Shown piece by piece: positions 1,401 to 5,575 of a DNA stretch of 24,177 nt. Below the pieces are notes generated by a model that was not told the origin of the DNA, made no database searches, and saw only the letters and a program-made list of their open reading frames with translations. The position numbers were made by a program, and so were the translations under genes. Position 1 is the stretch's first letter. Every line of letters begins with the position of its first letter. This stretch comes from a virus, in the UHGV virus genome UHGV-0274038. One strand, written 5' to 3'.

Positions 1401-1485
1401 AGTCAGAGATAACAATCAACTAATACTGTTTTGTTGATTTTTGCTTGTAATTGGCGTTCTGGTCTGATTTTTGTGGAGTAAGTTG

Positions 1486-1869
1486 ATGCGTGATATTCAG
1501 ATGGTTCTTGAGCGTTGGGGAGCGTGGGCGGCTAATAATCATGAAGATGTGACCTGGTCGTCCATTGCCGCCGGTTTTAAGGGATTAATTCCTTCAAAAG
1601 TAAAATCTCGCCCGCAATGTTGTGACGATGACGCGATGATCATTTGCGGGTGCATGGCCCGTCTGAAAAAGAACAACAGCGATTTGCACGATTTATTAGT
1701 AGATTATTATGTAGTCGGTATGACATTCATGTCACTGGCAGGTAAGCATTGCTGCTCTGATGGTTATATCGGGAAAAGGTTACAAAAGGCTGAGGGCATA
1801 ATTGAAGGGATGTTAATGGCATTAGATATCCGGTTAGAGATGGATATCGTTGTTAATAACTCTAATTAA
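1486..1869 (+). CDS. Q: Late-gene antiterminator Q (phage-21/DLP12 QuuD-like), 127 aa
   Basis: [26 protein letters not shown]...[16 protein letters not shown]... is the last gene of the nin module before the lysis region. ATG at 1486 preferred over the upstream TTG at 1471 used by the ORF track. Confidence 0.8.
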
Positions 1870-1890
1870 TACGCCAATTATTTACTAAAA

Positions 1891-1920
1891 GTTATTAAAA
1901 ATGGGGCGTTGAAACGCCCC
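1891..1920 (-). terminator. Intrinsic terminator for the minus-strand porin transcript
   Basis: GC stem GGGGCG/CGCCCC (1903..1908 and 1915..1920) with a 6-nt loop. On the minus strand it is followed by a U-run (complement of TTATTAAAAAT, 1892..1902). Confidence 0.5.
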
Positions 1921-2057
1921 CAAAAATACAGGGTAATATATAACAGAAGGTTTGTATAGTTAGAAGCAAGGTTGTGCTTCTAAAGGAAGTGGCTTGAGGG
2001 AGCCACTTATATGTTGGGGAGGCAAAGCCTCCCACAACATATCTTTTAGTAATCAAA
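1893..2057 (-). ncRNA. ipeX: Candidate 3'UTR-derived sRNA of the porin gene (IpeX-like)
   Basis: About 165 nt between the porin stop (2058) and the minus-strand terminator contains three further stem-loops (about 1961..1980, 1991..2010, 2016..2033). DLP12 is known to encode the sRNA IpeX from the nmpC 3' region. Homology not verified. Confidence 0.35.
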
Positions 2058-3140
2058 TTAGAACTGGTAAACCATACCTACAGCAACGATATCATCGGTA
2101 GCAACGCCAGATGCTTTCGTGAAATCGCTCTTATCAATCAGGTTGATTTTGTAGTCAACAAAAGTGGACATATTTTTGTTGAAGTAATAGGTTGCACCTA
2201 CATCAACATATTCAACCAGGTCCTGATCACCCCAAACACCCAAGTCTTTTCCTTTAGAATGCAGGTAAGCAACGGATGGACGCAGGCCGAAGTCGAACTG
2301 ATATTGTGCAACAGCTTCGAAGTTTTGTGCTTTGTTGGCAATATGGTTATTACCAAAAACAGTCATGTTCTGGGTTTCAGAATAGGTGGTGGCCAGATAG
2401 ATGTTGTTCGCATCATATTTCAGACCAGCTGCCCATACTTCAGCATTTTGACCAGAAGCATTCAGACCGTTGTTACCGTAGATAACCTGATTATTAGTGC
2501 GATCAGATTTAGCATAGGTTGCACCCACGCCGAATCCTTCATACTCATAAGTAGTTGAGAAACCGAAACCATCGCCATTAGCTTCAGTTACTTCATTTCG
2601 GTCATTTTTGCCCTGATACTGAGCTGCAAAGTTCAGGCCATCAACCAGACCAAAGAAGTCGTTGTTACGATAAGTTGCAACACCTGTGGTGCGACCAGTC
2701 ATGAATACATCTGTTTGGGTCCAGGTATCGCCACCGAATTCTGGCAGAACGTCGGTCCATGCACCAATATCGTATGCTACACCGTAGTTACGGCCATAAT
2801 CGATGGAGCCGTAGTCACCGAATTTCAGGCCAGCGAAGGCAAGACGGGTTTTATCTTTGGAGGAACCTTGAGATTCAGCGCGGTTGCCTTTGAATTCATA
2901 TTCCCACTGACCGAAACCAGTCAGTTGATCGTTGATTTGGGTTTCACCTTTGAAGCCAAGACGGGCATAAGTAGTATCACCATCATCTGCATCATTAGAG
3001 GAGAAGTAGTGCTTAGCATTAACTTTCCCGTACAGATCCAGCTTGTTACTGTCTTTATTATAAATTTCAGCTGCCTGAGCAGACATCGCCATCAGTACTG
3101 ATGCAGCTACAGCAGAAATTGCCACTGTTAATTTTTTCAT
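2058..3140 (-). CDS. nmpC: Outer-membrane general porin, NmpC/OmpD/OmpC family (360 aa), prophage moron
   Basis: Signal peptide [23 protein letters not shown] then AEIYNKD...; aromatic-rich beta-strand pattern and C-terminal ...VAVGMVYQF typical of 16-strand porins. Antisense to the phage genes, between Q and the lysis cassette as in DLP12. Confidence 0.9.
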
Positions 3141-3504
3141 CGTGAGCCCTTTTTTTTGAACTATTATTAAAAAATGATGTCACTGCGCGATAAATATTCA
3201 TCTAATCAATGTGATTATTTCAAGATGTAAGTTTTGGTTTCTCGTTTAATTTGTGAAGTAGATCTCTATTTTTATCTGAACTTTTTTCTATCGAATCCTA
3301 TTCATGGCTCTTGGCTGAATAAAAATAAATCTATTAGCCAATTTATATTAATGGCTGTTATTTATAAGTGCTCTATAATTTGAAGGTTCAATTTAAATTG
3401 GCTAAAAATAACGCTGGAAATTATTTGTTGGTTATTTGTTGAGATTTGCTTATGTATTTGTAGTGGTGTTTTCAATACTCGGTAGCATTCTCGCAAATAT
3501 CATT

Positions 3505-3545
3505 TAGTGGTTTACGTACGTAAAAAATTGGTTATGCTGTTAAGA
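3505..3545 (+). promoter_or_regulatory. Candidate late promoter pR' with Q-utilisation region (position approximate)
   Basis: Possible -35 TTTACG (3511..3516) and -10 TATGCT (3533..3538) with 16-nt spacing, about 30 nt upstream of a strong terminator hairpin. A short terminated leader RNA ahead of S is the classic pR'/qut/tR' arrangement. Promoter elements are weak matches. Confidence 0.3.
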
Positions 3546-3568
3546 GTGGTTACTTCGTCACACAGCGT

Positions 3569-3601
3569 AAACCCGCCGTCGAGCGGGTTTTTCCATTTTT
3601 T
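3569..3601 (+). terminator. tR'-like intrinsic terminator upstream of the lysis cassette
   Basis: Stem AAACCCGC/GCGGGTTT (3569..3576 and 3583..3590), 6-nt loop, followed by TTCCATTTTTT. Confidence 0.55.
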
Positions 3602-3713
3602 GAGTCTCGATATTAGCTGATAACCCAATACCTGAGTTATTCACTGACTCCGAGTCTGTTACGTTTCGTAGTATTCCCTCAATTTACACCCGCTTTGTCT
3701 GCGAGGTGGGGTT

Positions 3714-3929
3714 ATGAAATCCATGGATAAGTTAACAACGGGTGTCGCCTATGGCACCTCAGCAGGTAGTGCCGGGTACTGGTTTTTACAGCTGCTCGAT
3801 AAAGTCACGCCCTCACAGTGGGCAGCAATAGGTGTGCTGGGTAGCCTGGTATTTGGCCTGCTGACGTACCTGACAAACCTTTATTTCAAGATTAAAGAAG
3901 ATAAGCGCAAGGCTGCGAGAGGTGAATAA
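3714..3929 (+). CDS. S: Class II holin, phage-21 S-type pinholin (71 aa) with dual-start motif
   Basis: [71 protein letters not shown]. Two transmembrane segments; Met1-Lys-Ser-Met4 allows holin and antiholin starts. Close to recalled S21. SD GAGGTGGGG upstream. Confidence 0.9.
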
Positions 3930-4937: not shown

Positions 4938-5086
4938 ACATCTGAATTTCACAGCGCATCTCACGCGCATATTACATCACCCGAGCCTTTCAGAAAGTTG
5001 AGCCTGAGAACTGCCGTATATGGTGGCGACCATCTCGGGGCGGCTTTTCTGTGAGACAGGCTCACTTTCTAAAAGGTAAAGACGCT

Positions 5087-5575
5087 ATGAACCAATTAGA
5101 AGAAAAGCTTCAAAGAATGATTTCCTTATACAAGGAAGATAACTGCCAAAAAGTTCCTGAAAACATCGCAGAGTTAATGGAATTGGCAAGTGAATTTTCT
5201 GGCATGCTTAAGTCGTCAGGTGTTCGGTCAGCGTTCTTTGTTGAAATGCTGATGCACGGCGGACTTATGGCAACAATGAGACGTGTAATGGAAGACCAGA
5301 GAAAAGAACCTCCTCAGGTATACGTTTTGTCATCGAAGAAAACTGGGCTAACCAAAATTGGGTATTCATCCAACATTCCACAACGCATCAAATCGCTTGG
5401 CAACTCTGGACCAGACTGCTTGAAGCTTGAGTGCCTGATCCCTGGTGGAAGAGAAACTGAAAACATGCTTCATCGCAAATTTGCCGCAAAGAGAAAGCAC
5501 GGTGAATGGTTCGCCCTGTCCAAGGATGACATTGAGGGATTGAAATCTGTAGCGATTACTTCTGATGGCTATTAA
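5087..5575 (+). CDS. Accessory protein with C-terminal T5orf172 (GIY-YIG-like) nuclease domain and unrecognised helical N-terminal domain (162 aa)
   Basis: C-terminal half QVYVLSSKKTGLTKIGYSSNIPQRIKSLGN...ENMLHRKFAAKRKHGEWFALSKDD fits the T5orf172/Mug113 pattern (YVL...GL-KIG-S...R...E-LH-F...GEWF). N-terminal about 85 aa has no family I recognise. ATG at 5087 with AAAGG upstream; the ORF-track start at 5051 is non-ATG. Confidence 0.65.
   Translation: MNQLEEKLQRMISLYKEDNCQKVPENIAELMELASEFSGMLKSSGVRSAFFVEMLMHGGLMATMRRVMEDQRKEPPQVYVLSSKKTGLTKIGYSSNIPQRIKSLGNSGPDCLKLECLIPGGRETENMLHRKFAAKRKHGEWFALSKDDIEGLKSVAITSDGY

What the first reader, a model, noticed from the sequence alone, without database searches (positions are those of the whole stretch)
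1870..3480. Antisense porin moron between Q and the lysis genes, with a long structured 3' UTR (IpeX-like)
A complete NmpC/OmpD-type porin gene is transcribed against the phage late direction. It ends in an about 165-nt 3' UTR with four stem-loops and a minus-strand terminator, and its AT-rich 5' region (3141..3480) looks like a porin promoter region. The nmpC gene in K-12 DLP12 is disrupted, so an apparently intact copy with its regulatory RNA is of interest for lysogenic conversion (changed outer-membrane permeability or phage-receptor profile).
Basis: partly seen in the sequence, partly recalled or inferred. Interest (0 to 1): 0.45.

Follow-up and report, generated by a model that had tools for sequence, protein, structure and literature searches.

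The report
Known phage porin gene with IpeX RNA
This is an intact copy of the long-known Lc/NmpC porin gene of lambda-like E. coli prophages, with its known IpeX regulatory RNA tail; it is common and ordinary, but the tail can pair with the ribosome-binding site of the host ompC mRNA, which reviews say it cannot.

Summary
Window 2058-3140 (-) is an intact 360-aa general porin. It is 90% identical to Lc of phage PA-2 and to K-12 NmpC with IS5 removed. Its 165-nt 3' UTR (1893-2057) folds into three hairpins plus an intrinsic terminator (z = -9.25). That UTR is about 95% identical to the K-12 DLP12 nmpC-quuD intergenic region, where IpeX is described, so it is an IpeX allele rather than a look-alike. 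The AT-rich upstream region matches the nmpC promoter region shown to be functional in K-12.

None of this is new. The DNA is 99.9% identical to phage ev243. The exact protein occurs on at least 1000 public contigs. The UTR occurs in 2500 of 5426 complete E. coli genomes. Verdict: already known, low interest.

Two refinements came out of the work.
- A conserved promoter-to-terminator block at 3510-3600 looks like the late promoter unit. If so, the porin lies between Q and the late promoter, back to back with late transcription.
- The open linker of the UTR has 15 contiguous base pairs with the ompC Shine-Dalgarno region (p about 0.002-0.007), and 15 of 16 with ompF. Three papers held in the library say no such complementarity or base pairing exists. 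This is testable.

The parts
1471..1869 (+). Q-type late antiterminator gene (context; QuuD-like)
   Evidence: Pfam Phage_antitermQ, E = 9.7e-54. Distant match to Q21 structures 6jnx/6p18, E = 7e-8.
1893..2057 (-). 165-nt 3' UTR of the porin mRNA; an allele of the IpeX RNA
   Evidence: About 95% identical to the K-12 DLP12 nmpC-quuD intergenic region and to the PA-2 and 434B copies. Fold z = -9.25. Present in 2500 of 5426 E. coli genomes. 45 distinct variants from about 260 loci keep the structure.
1893..1920 (-). Intrinsic terminator: stem-loop 1903-1920 plus U-tail 1893-1902 (AUUUUUAAUA)
   Evidence: Terminator scan. MFE and centroid structures. The stem is invariant in 45 variants apart from loop changes.
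1921..1959 (-). Open, A/U-rich linker between hairpin 3 and the terminator; it holds the candidate seeds
   Evidence: Mean unpaired probability is about 0.7 over the seeds. The sequence is almost invariant in 45 variants, including E. albertii.
1938..1952 (-). Candidate anti-ompC seed, RNA 5'-AACCUUCUGUUAUAU-3'
   Evidence: 15 contiguous pairs (14 Watson-Crick plus 1 G.U) with ompC -22..-8, 5'-AUAUAACAGAGGGUU-3'. The fraction of dinucleotide shuffles reaching this run is 0.007 (window) and 0.002 (K-12). Linker-versus-TIR duplex energy is -22.7 and -26.7 kcal/mol, p = 0.007 and 0.001. ompC leaders take 9 (window linker) or 11 (K-12 linker) of the 12 best-scoring places among 589 natural TIR-like sequences.
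1930..1945 (-). Candidate anti-ompF seed, RNA 5'-UGUUAUAUAUUACCCU-3'
   Evidence: 15 of 16 positions pair with ompF 5'-AGGGUAAUAAAUAAUG-3', which runs from the SD to the start codon. Shuffle p = 0.021 (window) and 0.011 (K-12) by pair count; the energy test is not significant, p = 0.08-0.15.
1960..2043 (-). Three hairpins: HP3 1960-1983, HP2 1987-2008, HP1 2009-2043
   Evidence: MFE and centroid structures. The RNAalifold consensus keeps them. Common polymorphisms fall in loops or give G.U pairs. E. albertii has one compensatory C-G to U-A change in HP1.
2058..3140 (-). Porin gene (lc/nmpC type), 360 aa plus stop; the signal peptide is codons 1-23 (3072-3140)
   Evidence: Pfam Porin_1, E = 3.6e-152. 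90.4% identity to PA-2 Lc and to K-12 NmpC with IS5 removed. Best solved relatives are OmpK37 and OmpC, E about 1e-135. The identical protein is on at least 1000 contigs, named porin OmpD or LC. The signal peptide is placed by the homologous 23-aa sig_peptide of the PA-2 record.
3141..3339 (-). Porin promoter region (-199..-1) and 5' UTR
   Evidence: Nearly identical to the K-12 and PA-2 upstream regions. In K-12, deleting -199..-1 abolishes the PnmpC effect, and a TSS was mapped by 5' RACE (PMC11677980). 30% G+C.
3249..3269 (.). CRP (CAP) site as annotated in the PA-2 GenBank record, AATTTGTGAAGTAGATCTCTA
   Evidence: misc_binding at L001 1434-1454 in J02580, mapped through alignment A2. Its core is also conserved in E. 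albertii.
3340..3509 (.). AT-rich spacer between the porin promoter and the candidate late promoter
   Evidence: 28% G+C over 3141-3480. Conserved in K-12 and PA-2 but not in E. albertii or PhiR40_1.
3510..3600 (+). Candidate late promoter unit (pR'-like): -35 GTTTACG 3510-3516, -10 TATGCT 3533-3538, a leader of about 50 nt, and terminator 3569-3590 with its T-run to 3600
   Evidence: Terminator scan. An 83-bp block, 84% identical, sits in porin-less phage PhiR40_1 directly after its own antisense cargo gene. Conservation starts at the -35 and ends at the T-run. The function is inferred, not shown.
3714..3929 (+). First late gene: P21-type holin (context)
   Evidence: Pfam Phage_holin_2_1, E = 2e-35.

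Best explanation
The interval is the Lc/NmpC porin cassette of DLP12/PA-2-type lambdoid phages, here uninterrupted. It is a self-contained transcription unit on the minus strand.

Anatomy: an AT-rich promoter region with a CRP site; a 23-residue signal peptide plus a mature general porin of about 337 residues; and a 165-nt 3' UTR that is the IpeX RNA. The UTR consists of three hairpins, a 39-nt open linker and an intrinsic terminator.

Proposed working: in a lysogen the cassette is transcribed independently of the phage lytic programme. The porin is exported and inserted in the outer membrane. The 3' UTR, as part of the mRNA or clipped from it, lowers OmpC and OmpF after transcription. The phage porin thus partly replaces the host porins, which changes permeability and removes OmpC as a receptor for other phages.

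Shown here: the identity of every part by sequence, the intactness of the gene, the fold, the terminator, and how widespread the cassette is.

Taken from the literature by homology: promoter activity and the OmpC/OmpF repression.

My inference: repression works at least partly by direct pairing of the open linker with the Shine-Dalgarno regions of ompC (15 contiguous bp) and ompF (15 of 16). The cassette's own ribosome-binding site lacks the match. A second inference is that the cassette lies between Q and the late promoter rather than inside the late operon.
For: - Intact ORF; full-length Porin_1 match.
- 90% identity to Lc and to repaired NmpC.
- 99.9% DNA identity to phage ev243, and hits in 36 phage records including PA-2 lc (J02580) and 434B with the DLP12 segment.
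- 3' UTR about 95% identical to the K-12 ipeX locus.
- Fold z = -9.25; terminator called by the scan.
- The structure is kept in 45 variants.
- The upstream region is nearly identical to the functional K-12 PnmpC region.
- Pairing: run of 15, p = 0.002-0.007. Linker-TIR energies have p = 0.001-0.007 for ompC; ompA shows nothing; the window's own porin TIR gives p = 0.85 by pair count and 0.055 by energy, so no clear signal. Only the two IpeX loci among 80 enterobacterial porin 3' regions reach 15. ompC leaders top a natural background of 589 TIR-like sequences. The ompC leader is at least 99% identical in 5359 of 5426 genomes. The seed has about 0.7 unpaired probability.
- Cassette behaviour: G+C of 28-44% against 53% for the window. 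Other antisense cargo occupies the same slot in phages with a related Q.
Against: - Nothing here measures expression. From my own knowledge of the literature (Prilipov et al. 1998, not readable here), nmpC-type genes are quiescent in E. coli B under standard conditions.
- Papers held in the library state that IpeX has no complementarity to, or does not base-pair with, its targets, and one says the regulation does not rely only on complementarity. I could not read the primary paper, Castillo-Keller et al. 2006, so the pairing I found may have been seen and excluded experimentally.
- The ompF match is only marginally better than shuffles, and not by energy.
- With the K-12 linker, the match to the cassette's own TIR beats shuffles (p = 0.034 by pairs, 0.010 by energy), through a U-run/A-run helix. 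So 'no self-match' holds clearly only for this window's allele.
- The U-tail is short (5 U), which by established knowledge of Hfq-binding sRNAs is poor for Hfq.
- Covariation support for the hairpins is negligible because the family is too uniform: covariation term -0.27, and only 2 pairs with double changes.
Confidence: 0.85

Rival explanations
1. IpeX acts indirectly, as the published view has it. The structured 3' UTR lowers OmpC and OmpF without pairing to their mRNAs, for example by titrating a protein or RNase or by triggering an envelope response. The 15-bp match would then be fortuitous or non-functional.
For: Papers held in the library say there is no complementarity or no base pairing, and one says the regulation does not rely only on complementarity. 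One paper calls IpeX Hfq-independent. The short U-tail argues against a classical Hfq sRNA (sequence). The ompF match is weak by energy.
Against: The run of 15 has p = 0.002-0.007. It lies in the one open segment of the RNA and on the SD of the very mRNA reported to be repressed. ompC leaders are the best natural matches among 589 sequences. ompA, which I recall as reported unaffected, shows no match.
Confidence: 0.35
2. The 3' UTR is only a cis element. The hairpins and terminator stabilise the porin mRNA and insulate the convergent Q and porin transcription units. Any effect on host porins in single copy comes from competition between porins for export and assembly, not from the RNA.
For: It is a multi-hairpin 3' end with a strong terminator. 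As I recall, IpeX was found as a multicopy suppressor, and a review says the same. The cassette abuts the end of Q, with only 23 bp between the Q stop codon and the terminator tail.
Against: A review reports that ipeX is made from the phage porin promoter as part of the porin transcript and controls OmpC production. The linker is conserved and specifically complementary to ompC, which a pure stabiliser does not need.
Confidence: 0.12
3. The cassette is silent in the lysogen. H-NS would silence the 28% G+C upstream region, or the gene would be quiescent as in E. coli B. In that case there is no conversion under ordinary conditions.
For: The upstream region is very AT-rich. One paper notes that NmpC/OmpD is not expressed in many E. 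coli strains. The quiescence of the intact copy in E. coli B is from my own knowledge (Prilipov et al. 1998, cited, not readable here).
Against: In K-12 the homologous promoter drives a transcript detectable by 5' RACE and measurable downstream effects. ipeX RNA was quantified by expression analysis in 20 clinical isolates.
Confidence: 0.25
4. The 1895-2056 minus-strand ORF (53 aa, TTG start) inside the UTR encodes a small protein.
For: The ORF exists.
Against: No Pfam match. About half of the 45 natural variants carry a 1-nt insertion near its start, at alignment column 13, which shifts the frame. The region is explained by hairpins with z = -9.25.
Confidence: 0.02

Closest known systems
IpeX RNA of cryptic prophage DLP12 (E. 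coli K-12) and phage PA-2 (Castillo-Keller, Vuong and Misra, J Bacteriol 2006; cited from reviews and from memory, primary text not held)
   Same: Same position: directly after the nmpC/lc stop codon, ending at the intrinsic terminator. Nearly the same length, 165 against 167 nt. About 95% identical in sequence. Same four stem-loops.
   Different: About 9 substitutions or indels relative to the K-12/PA-2 allele, mostly in loops and in the first 15 nt. There is one private change at window 1929 (G in the RNA) in the linker. Here the RNA is still joined to an intact porin gene and its promoter, whereas in K-12 IS5 separates them.
Lc porin of phage PA-2 (GenBank J02580) and NmpC of DLP12
   Same: Same gene, orientation and neighbours (Q upstream, P21-type lysis genes downstream). 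90.4% protein identity. Residues 1-180 are essentially identical, with 2 differences from each.
   Different: 360 against 365 aa. The differences are concentrated in four patches (about 181-190, 218-232, 262-266 and 294-356) with two short indels. By analogy with solved OmpC/OmpF-type porins these are probably surface loops; that is an inference and was not modelled here. K-12 NmpC is split by IS5 after codon 346.
Chromosomal OmpD-type porins of Salmonella, Citrobacter and Enterobacter
   Same: The closest non-phage relatives, with 76-80% protein identity. Annotation pipelines name the phage protein 'OmpD' or 'OmpC'.
   Different: Their 3' regions show no blastn-detectable similarity to the IpeX UTR and lack the 15-nt anti-ompC stretch; the longest run there is 12. 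They are not in a prophage.
MicC and MicF, the chromosomal antisense RNAs for ompC and ompF
   Same: What it may work like: an open segment complementary to the ribosome-binding region of ompC or ompF. The candidate ompF site overlaps the stretch where MicF gives its longest run in my control, GGUAAUAAAUAA. From my own knowledge, the ompC site overlaps the 3' part of the MicC site.
   Different: Not homologous. IpeX is the 3' UTR of an mRNA rather than a free-standing gene, it is phage-borne, and it has a short U-tail. Pairing is predicted here only and is denied in the literature.
Lambdoid 'morons' near Q and the lysis genes (for example bor, or stx in Stx phages)
   Same: An autonomous promoter-gene-terminator unit of deviant G+C, sitting in a slot that holds different cargo in related phages.
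   Different: stx lies downstream of pR' and depends on Q (established knowledge). This cassette appears to lie upstream of the candidate pR', on the opposite strand.

Membership tests
IpeX RNA (nmpC/lc 3' UTR) | Sequence homology to the K-12 DLP12 nmpC-quuD intergenic region | tested here: met
   The four-way alignment has 98% mean column identity, and the window differs from K-12 at about 9 of 167 positions. The UTR is 88-100% identical to its best match in each of 2500 E. coli genomes.
IpeX RNA (nmpC/lc 3' UTR) | Lies directly 3' of an nmpC/lc-type porin stop codon on the same strand, and ends at a Rho-independent terminator | tested here: met
   Stop codon at 2058-2060, UTR at 1893-2057, terminator at 1903-1920 followed by its T-run.
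IpeX RNA (nmpC/lc 3' UTR) | Length of about 167 nt | tested here: met
   165 nt here and 167 nt for the K-12 equivalent. The review table gives 167 nt.
IpeX RNA (nmpC/lc 3' UTR) | Lowers OmpC and OmpF when expressed | not testable with these tools
   Needs outer-membrane protein profiles or reporter fusions.
IpeX RNA (nmpC/lc 3' UTR) | Match to a curated RNA family model | tested here: inconclusive
   Rfam 15 gave no gathering-level hit in the window, and only chance-level hits in 1700-3800 (TarB and traJ_5, E = 0.68-7). The K-12 homologue has no family either, so there is no model to match.
Enterobacterial general porin (Pfam Porin_1; Lc/NmpC subgroup) | Full-length Porin_1 domain | tested here: met
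   Residues 29-360 match profile positions 1-337 of 337, E = 3.6e-152.
Enterobacterial general porin (Pfam Porin_1; Lc/NmpC subgroup) | N-terminal signal peptide and C-terminal aromatic residue (..YQF) | tested here: met
   [27 protein letters not shown]... is identical to the PA-2 sig_peptide. The protein ends in ...GMVYQF.
Enterobacterial general porin (Pfam Porin_1; Lc/NmpC subgroup) | Open reading frame free of IS elements and frameshifts | tested here: met
   Colinear with Lc and repaired NmpC, with two short in-frame indels only. The K-12 and 434B copies carry IS5.
Enterobacterial general porin (Pfam Porin_1; Lc/NmpC subgroup) | 16-stranded trimeric beta-barrel | not tested
   Only sequence matches to solved porins were obtained (OmpK37, OmpC, PhoE, OmpF; E = 1e-135 to 1e-115). 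No structure was predicted.
Lambdoid moron (autonomous cargo cassette) | Own promoter and own terminator, independent of flanking phage operons | tested here: met
   The terminator is called by the scan. The promoter is assigned by near-identity to the functional K-12 PnmpC region. The consensus promoter scan itself found no strong sigma-70 match in 3141-3480.
Lambdoid moron (autonomous cargo cassette) | Deviant base composition, and presence/absence or cargo replacement among related phages | tested here: met
   28-44% G+C against 53% for the window. Phages with an 83-88% identical Q carry lipocalin Blc or another gene, also antisense, in the same slot.
Base-pairing sRNA of the MicC/MicF kind (works-like question only) | Accessible seed complementary to the translation-initiation region of the target | tested here: met
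   Met in silico only: 15 contiguous bp with the ompC SD region, a natural-sequence control, and about 0.7 unpaired probability.
Base-pairing sRNA of the MicC/MicF kind (works-like question only) | Hfq-binding module: terminator hairpin followed by a long U-run | tested here: inconclusive
   The hairpin is present, but the tail is AUUUUUAAUA, with only five consecutive U. Literature statements on Hfq dependence conflict.

The most novel reading that the evidence does not exclude
IpeX is a conventional antisense regulator after all. The invariant open linker between hairpin 3 and the terminator (window 1930-1952, minus strand) would pair with the Shine-Dalgarno regions of ompC (15 contiguous bp; about 24 bp in two helices for the K-12/PA-2 allele) and ompF (15 of 16 bp). 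In this window's allele the phage porin's own ribosome-binding site lacks the match. If true, this overturns the statement repeated in reviews for about 20 years that IpeX shares no complementarity with its targets. It would also make IpeX an early, phage-borne example of a 3'-UTR-derived sRNA whose job is to clear the membrane for the protein encoded just upstream on the same transcript.
Probability: 0.5. Interest if true: 0.45.

Novelty: already known. Interest (0 to 1): 0.2.

Why it matters
As an object it adds nothing new. The Lc/NmpC porin cassette and its IpeX tail have been described since the 1980s and 2006, and this allele is among the commonest prophage cargo in E. coli.

It matters in a practical sense. 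Nearly half of complete E. coli genomes carry the UTR. The cassette can change which porins sit in the outer membrane, and therefore antibiotic entry and phage receptor availability. Even so, ipeX is not annotated in the RefSeq K-12 record and has no Rfam family, and pipelines label the porin 'OmpC' or 'OmpD'.

The one point that could interest a specialist is the specific 15-bp complementarity between the IpeX linker and the ompC ribosome-binding site. It turns an unresolved mechanism into a two-plasmid compensatory-mutation experiment.

Tried and rejected
- **Rfam.** Gathering thresholds on the whole window, and E-value mode on 1700-3800, gave nothing meaningful.
- **Primary papers.** Castillo-Keller 2006 and Prilipov 1998 are not held. 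Statements about them are from reviews or from memory and are marked as such.
- **IpeX-like UTR behind chromosomal ompD-type genes.** blastn found it only in E. coli and E. albertii among 80 genome loci. It is therefore not an ancestral feature of ompD.
- **Covariation proof of the hairpins.** 45 distinct variants are too alike: covariation term -0.27, and only two pairs with double changes.
- **Full-length duplex energies of IpeX against ompC and ompF.** Uninformative, because the MicF-ompF positive control also failed (z = -1.0). A first version of that script crashed and another timed out. Windowed energies against mononucleotide shuffles were also weak. The run-length test, the linker-only test and the natural-background test were informative.
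- **'Empty site' test for the cassette.** The same number of phage records (36), with matching listed accessions, hold the porin and the 3481-3713 segment. No porin-less phage with identical flanks was found at megablast sensitivity. Phages with a diverged Q were used instead.
- **The 53-aa ORF in the UTR and the 44-aa ORF over the porin start (3067-3201).** Rejected as coding. The first has no Pfam family and a frame-shifting polymorphism; the second was not scanned and is an annotation by-product in ev243.
- **Suspected frameshift in ev243's porin.** Suggested by its split annotation and rejected: the DNA is identical to the window across the whole CDS.
Full report
**Observation**

The minus strand carries an uninterrupted ORF at 2058..3140. 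It has an ATG start, 360 codons and a TAA stop. It matches Pfam Porin_1 over the whole profile, E = 3.6e-152. Its best solved relatives are OmpK37, OmpC, PhoE and OmpF, with E from 1e-135 to 1e-115.

Folded as RNA, the minus strand gives four stem-loops:
- HP1 at 2009-2043
- HP2 at 1987-2008
- HP3 at 1960-1983
- the terminator stem at 1903-1920

A 39-nt open linker (1921-1959) lies before the terminator. The MFE is -64.1 kcal/mol against -30.0 +/- 3.7 for dinucleotide shuffles, so z = -9.25, and none of 200 shuffles folds as well. The consensus scan independently calls the minus-strand terminator.

The 5' region 3141-3480 is 28% G+C, against 44% for the gene and 53% for the window.

**Context**

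The flanking genes, in order, are: YbcO-like, RusA, a 46-aa ORF at 1260-1400 with no Pfam match (YlcG-like by position), the Q antiterminator (1471-1869, +), then the cassette, then a P21-type holin, lysozyme and Rz/Rz1. The rest of the window is lambda-like terminase, head and tail genes, 95-97% identical to phages PhiR70_1, PhiR30_1 and others. This is the gene order of cryptic prophage DLP12 in K-12: quuD, nmpC, essD, rrrD, rzpD.

**Identity**

The 1870-3480 interval is 99.9% identical to Escherichia phage ev243, with one difference at 1929. It is found in 36 phage records, including the 1986 PA-2 lc record J02580 and phage 434B, which carries the DLP12 segment with IS5.

The protein is 90.4% identical to PA-2 Lc and to K-12 NmpC once the two fragments around IS5 are joined. 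The first 180 residues are essentially identical, with two differences from each. Most of the remaining differences cluster in four patches, at about 181-190, 218-232, 262-266 and 294-356, with two short in-frame indels. By analogy with solved porins these are probably surface loops. That is an inference and I did not model it.

The exact 360-aa sequence occurs on at least 1000 contigs in public data, under the names 'porin OmpD', 'porin OmpC' and 'outer membrane porin protein LC'. It is identical in more than 40 IMG/VR contigs.

**The 3' UTR is IpeX**

Aligned with the K-12 nmpC-quuD intergenic region and with the PA-2 and 434B copies, the UTR differs at about nine positions of 167. The K-12 equivalent is 167 nt long, which is the length given for IpeX. 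The library describes IpeX as an RNA of DLP12 and PA-2. It is made from the phage porin promoter as part of the porin transcript, and it lowers OmpC and OmpF.

The suggested Rfam check cannot be done. Rfam 15 has no such family and returned only chance-level hits. ipeX is also not annotated in RefSeq NC_000913.3, although micF is.

The UTR occurs in 2500 of 5426 complete E. coli genomes at 88-100% identity, nearly always next to an annotated porin. Among 80 porin loci from one genome per species, only E. coli and E. albertii have it. The chromosomal OmpD-type genes of Salmonella, Citrobacter and Enterobacter (76-80% protein identity) do not. So the UTR belongs to the phage cassette, not to the ompD lineage.

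**Structure conservation**

I extracted 45 distinct UTR variants from about 260 loci. The consensus structure keeps all four stem-loops. Common polymorphisms lie in loops or linkers, or turn A-U into G.U. E. albertii, the most divergent copy, has one compensatory C-G to U-A change at the top of HP1. Diversity is too low for real covariation support: the covariation term is -0.27, and two pairs have double changes.

A 53-aa ORF inside the UTR is not conserved, because half of the variants carry a 1-nt insertion near its start.

**Promoter side**

The stretch from the porin start codon to the holin gene is nearly identical to K-12 and PA-2. In K-12, deleting -199..-1 upstream of nmpC, or placing a terminator there, removes the promoter's effect. 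A transcription start was also mapped by 5' RACE (PMC11677980). The PA-2 GenBank record marks a CRP site that maps to window 3249-3269. The simple sigma-70 consensus scan found no strong match in 3141-3480, so promoter assignment rests on homology.

**Where late transcription starts (inference)**

A plus-strand intrinsic terminator lies at 3569-3600. It is preceded by GTTTACG, a 16-nt spacer and TATGCT (3510-3538).

Phage PhiR40_1 has an 83%-identical Q and no porin. It holds an 84%-identical copy of exactly this block, directly after its own, different, antisense cargo gene. Conservation begins at the -35 and stops at the T-run. Phage 1H12, whose Q is 88% identical, has lipocalin Blc, also antisense, in the same slot.

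I read this block as the pR'/leader/tR' unit served by this Q family. If that is right, the porin cassette sits between Q and the late promoter, back to back with it.

**How IpeX may work**

Three papers in the library address this. Two state that IpeX has no complementarity to, or does not base-pair with, its targets. One says the regulation does not rely only on complementarity. I could not read the primary paper.

Scanning the RNA against the K-12 ompC leader gave a run of 15 contiguous pairs, 14 Watson-Crick and one G.U. The IpeX side is 5'-AACCUUCUGUUAUAU-3' (window 1938-1952, in the open linker). The ompC side is 5'-AUAUAACAGAGGGUU-3' at -22..-8, which includes the Shine-Dalgarno GAGGG.

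Support for the ompC match:
- The fraction of dinucleotide shuffles with a run this long is 0.007 for the window allele and 0.002 for the K-12 allele. The bona fide MicF-ompF pair reaches only 12.
- Using the linker alone against -40..+20 of each gene, ompC gives -22.7 kcal/mol (window, p = 0.007) and -26.7 kcal/mol (K-12, p = 0.001).
- The K-12/PA-2 allele adds a second helix, CCUUUAUUU with AAAUAAAGG (my reading of the sequences printed).

Results for the other targets:
- ompF pairs at 15 of 16 positions, from the SD to the start codon, with p = 0.01-0.02 by pair count. It is not significant by energy.
- ompA shows nothing.
- The window's own porin TIR shows no clear match (p = 0.85 by pair count, 0.055 by energy). 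The K-12 linker does beat shuffles against it (p = 0.034 and 0.010), through a U-run/A-run helix.

Natural-sequence controls:
- Of 80 enterobacterial porin 3' regions, only the two IpeX loci contain the 15-nt stretch; the others reach 12 at most.
- Of 589 natural initiation-region-like sequences from the fetched loci, ompC orthologue leaders take 9 (window linker) or 11 (K-12 linker) of the 12 best scores.

Further points:
- The seed is about 70% unpaired in the ensemble.
- It is invariant in the 45 variants apart from one pairing-neutral C to U.
- The ompC leader is at least 99% identical in 5359 of 5426 genomes.
- The window's single private base (G in the RNA at 1929, U everywhere else) breaks the second helix.

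I rate direct pairing at about 0.5. The statistics are good for ompC. Against that, the published view is the opposite, the primary data may already exclude it, the U-tail is short, and nothing here is experimental.

**Verdict**

It is a textbook element: the Lc/NmpC porin moron with its IpeX 3' UTR, in one of its commonest alleles. An intact copy is the rule outside K-12 laboratory strains, not an exception.

Novelty: already known. Interest: low (0.2). What interest there is comes from the testable ompC complementarity and from the placement of the cassette relative to the candidate late promoter.

Noticed in passing
window 3510-3600 (+): A promoter-like pair (GTTTACG, 16-nt spacer, TATGCT), a leader of about 50 nt and an intrinsic terminator form one conserved block. 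Porin-less phage PhiR40_1 shares it (84% identity), directly after its own antisense cargo gene. It is probably the pR'/tR' late unit for this Q family.
   Followed up: partly
window 1929: The window has C here (G in the RNA). Phage ev243 and all 44 other UTR variants from about 260 loci have the base that gives U. The change lies in the open linker and breaks a second helix that the common allele can form with the ompC leader.
   Followed up: partly
L261 3050-3574 (phage 1H12); L262 2966-3412 (PhiR40_1); L002 1094-2053 (434B): The neighbourhood of Q is a cargo hot-spot. Lipocalin Blc and a 148-aa hypothetical protein sit antisense directly after related Q genes. An LpxR lipid A deacylase sits antisense upstream of the functional Q gene in 434B.
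   Followed up: partly
window 2058-3140 (-), protein residues about 181-190, 218-232, 262-266 and 294-356: Differences from Lc/NmpC are confined to four patches and two short indels, while the first 180 residues are essentially identical (two differences from each). This looks like loop-swapping between porin alleles, possibly under selection by phages or colicins.
   Followed up: partly
L004 2689-3832 (RefSeq NC_049955, phage ev243): RefSeq calls the porin from an internal start (345 aa) and adds a 44-aa 'hypothetical protein' over the true start, although the DNA is identical to the window across the CDS. This is an annotation artefact.
   Followed up: yes
L003 (NC_000913.3 574340-574528) and Rfam 15: ipeX is not annotated in the RefSeq K-12 record, although other sRNAs such as micF are. 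There is no Rfam family, so automatic pipelines never label this RNA.
   Followed up: yes
window 5051-5575 (+): A 174-aa ORF with T5orf172/MUG113 domains follows the Rz/Rz1 genes, at the position where DLP12 and ev243 carry a bor-like lipoprotein gene on the other strand.
   Followed up: no
window about 3545-3565: The second 'CRP binding site' of the PA-2 GenBank record maps inside the candidate late-promoter leader rather than near the porin promoter. Its meaning there is unclear.
   Followed up: no
L023 2501-2681 (E. albertii): This is the most divergent IpeX copy (88% identity). It keeps the linker seed intact and has a compensatory C-G to U-A change at the top of hairpin 1. Its upstream region is conserved only for about 160 nt, including the CRP-site core.
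   Followed up: partly
L037 (Buttiauxella brennerae), within 260 nt after the porin stop codon at 3637: A 12-nt stretch, CCCTCTGTTATG, complementary to the ompC leader site lies downstream of a 62%-identical chromosomal porin gene. It is the longest such run outside the IpeX loci and may be chance.
   Followed up: no
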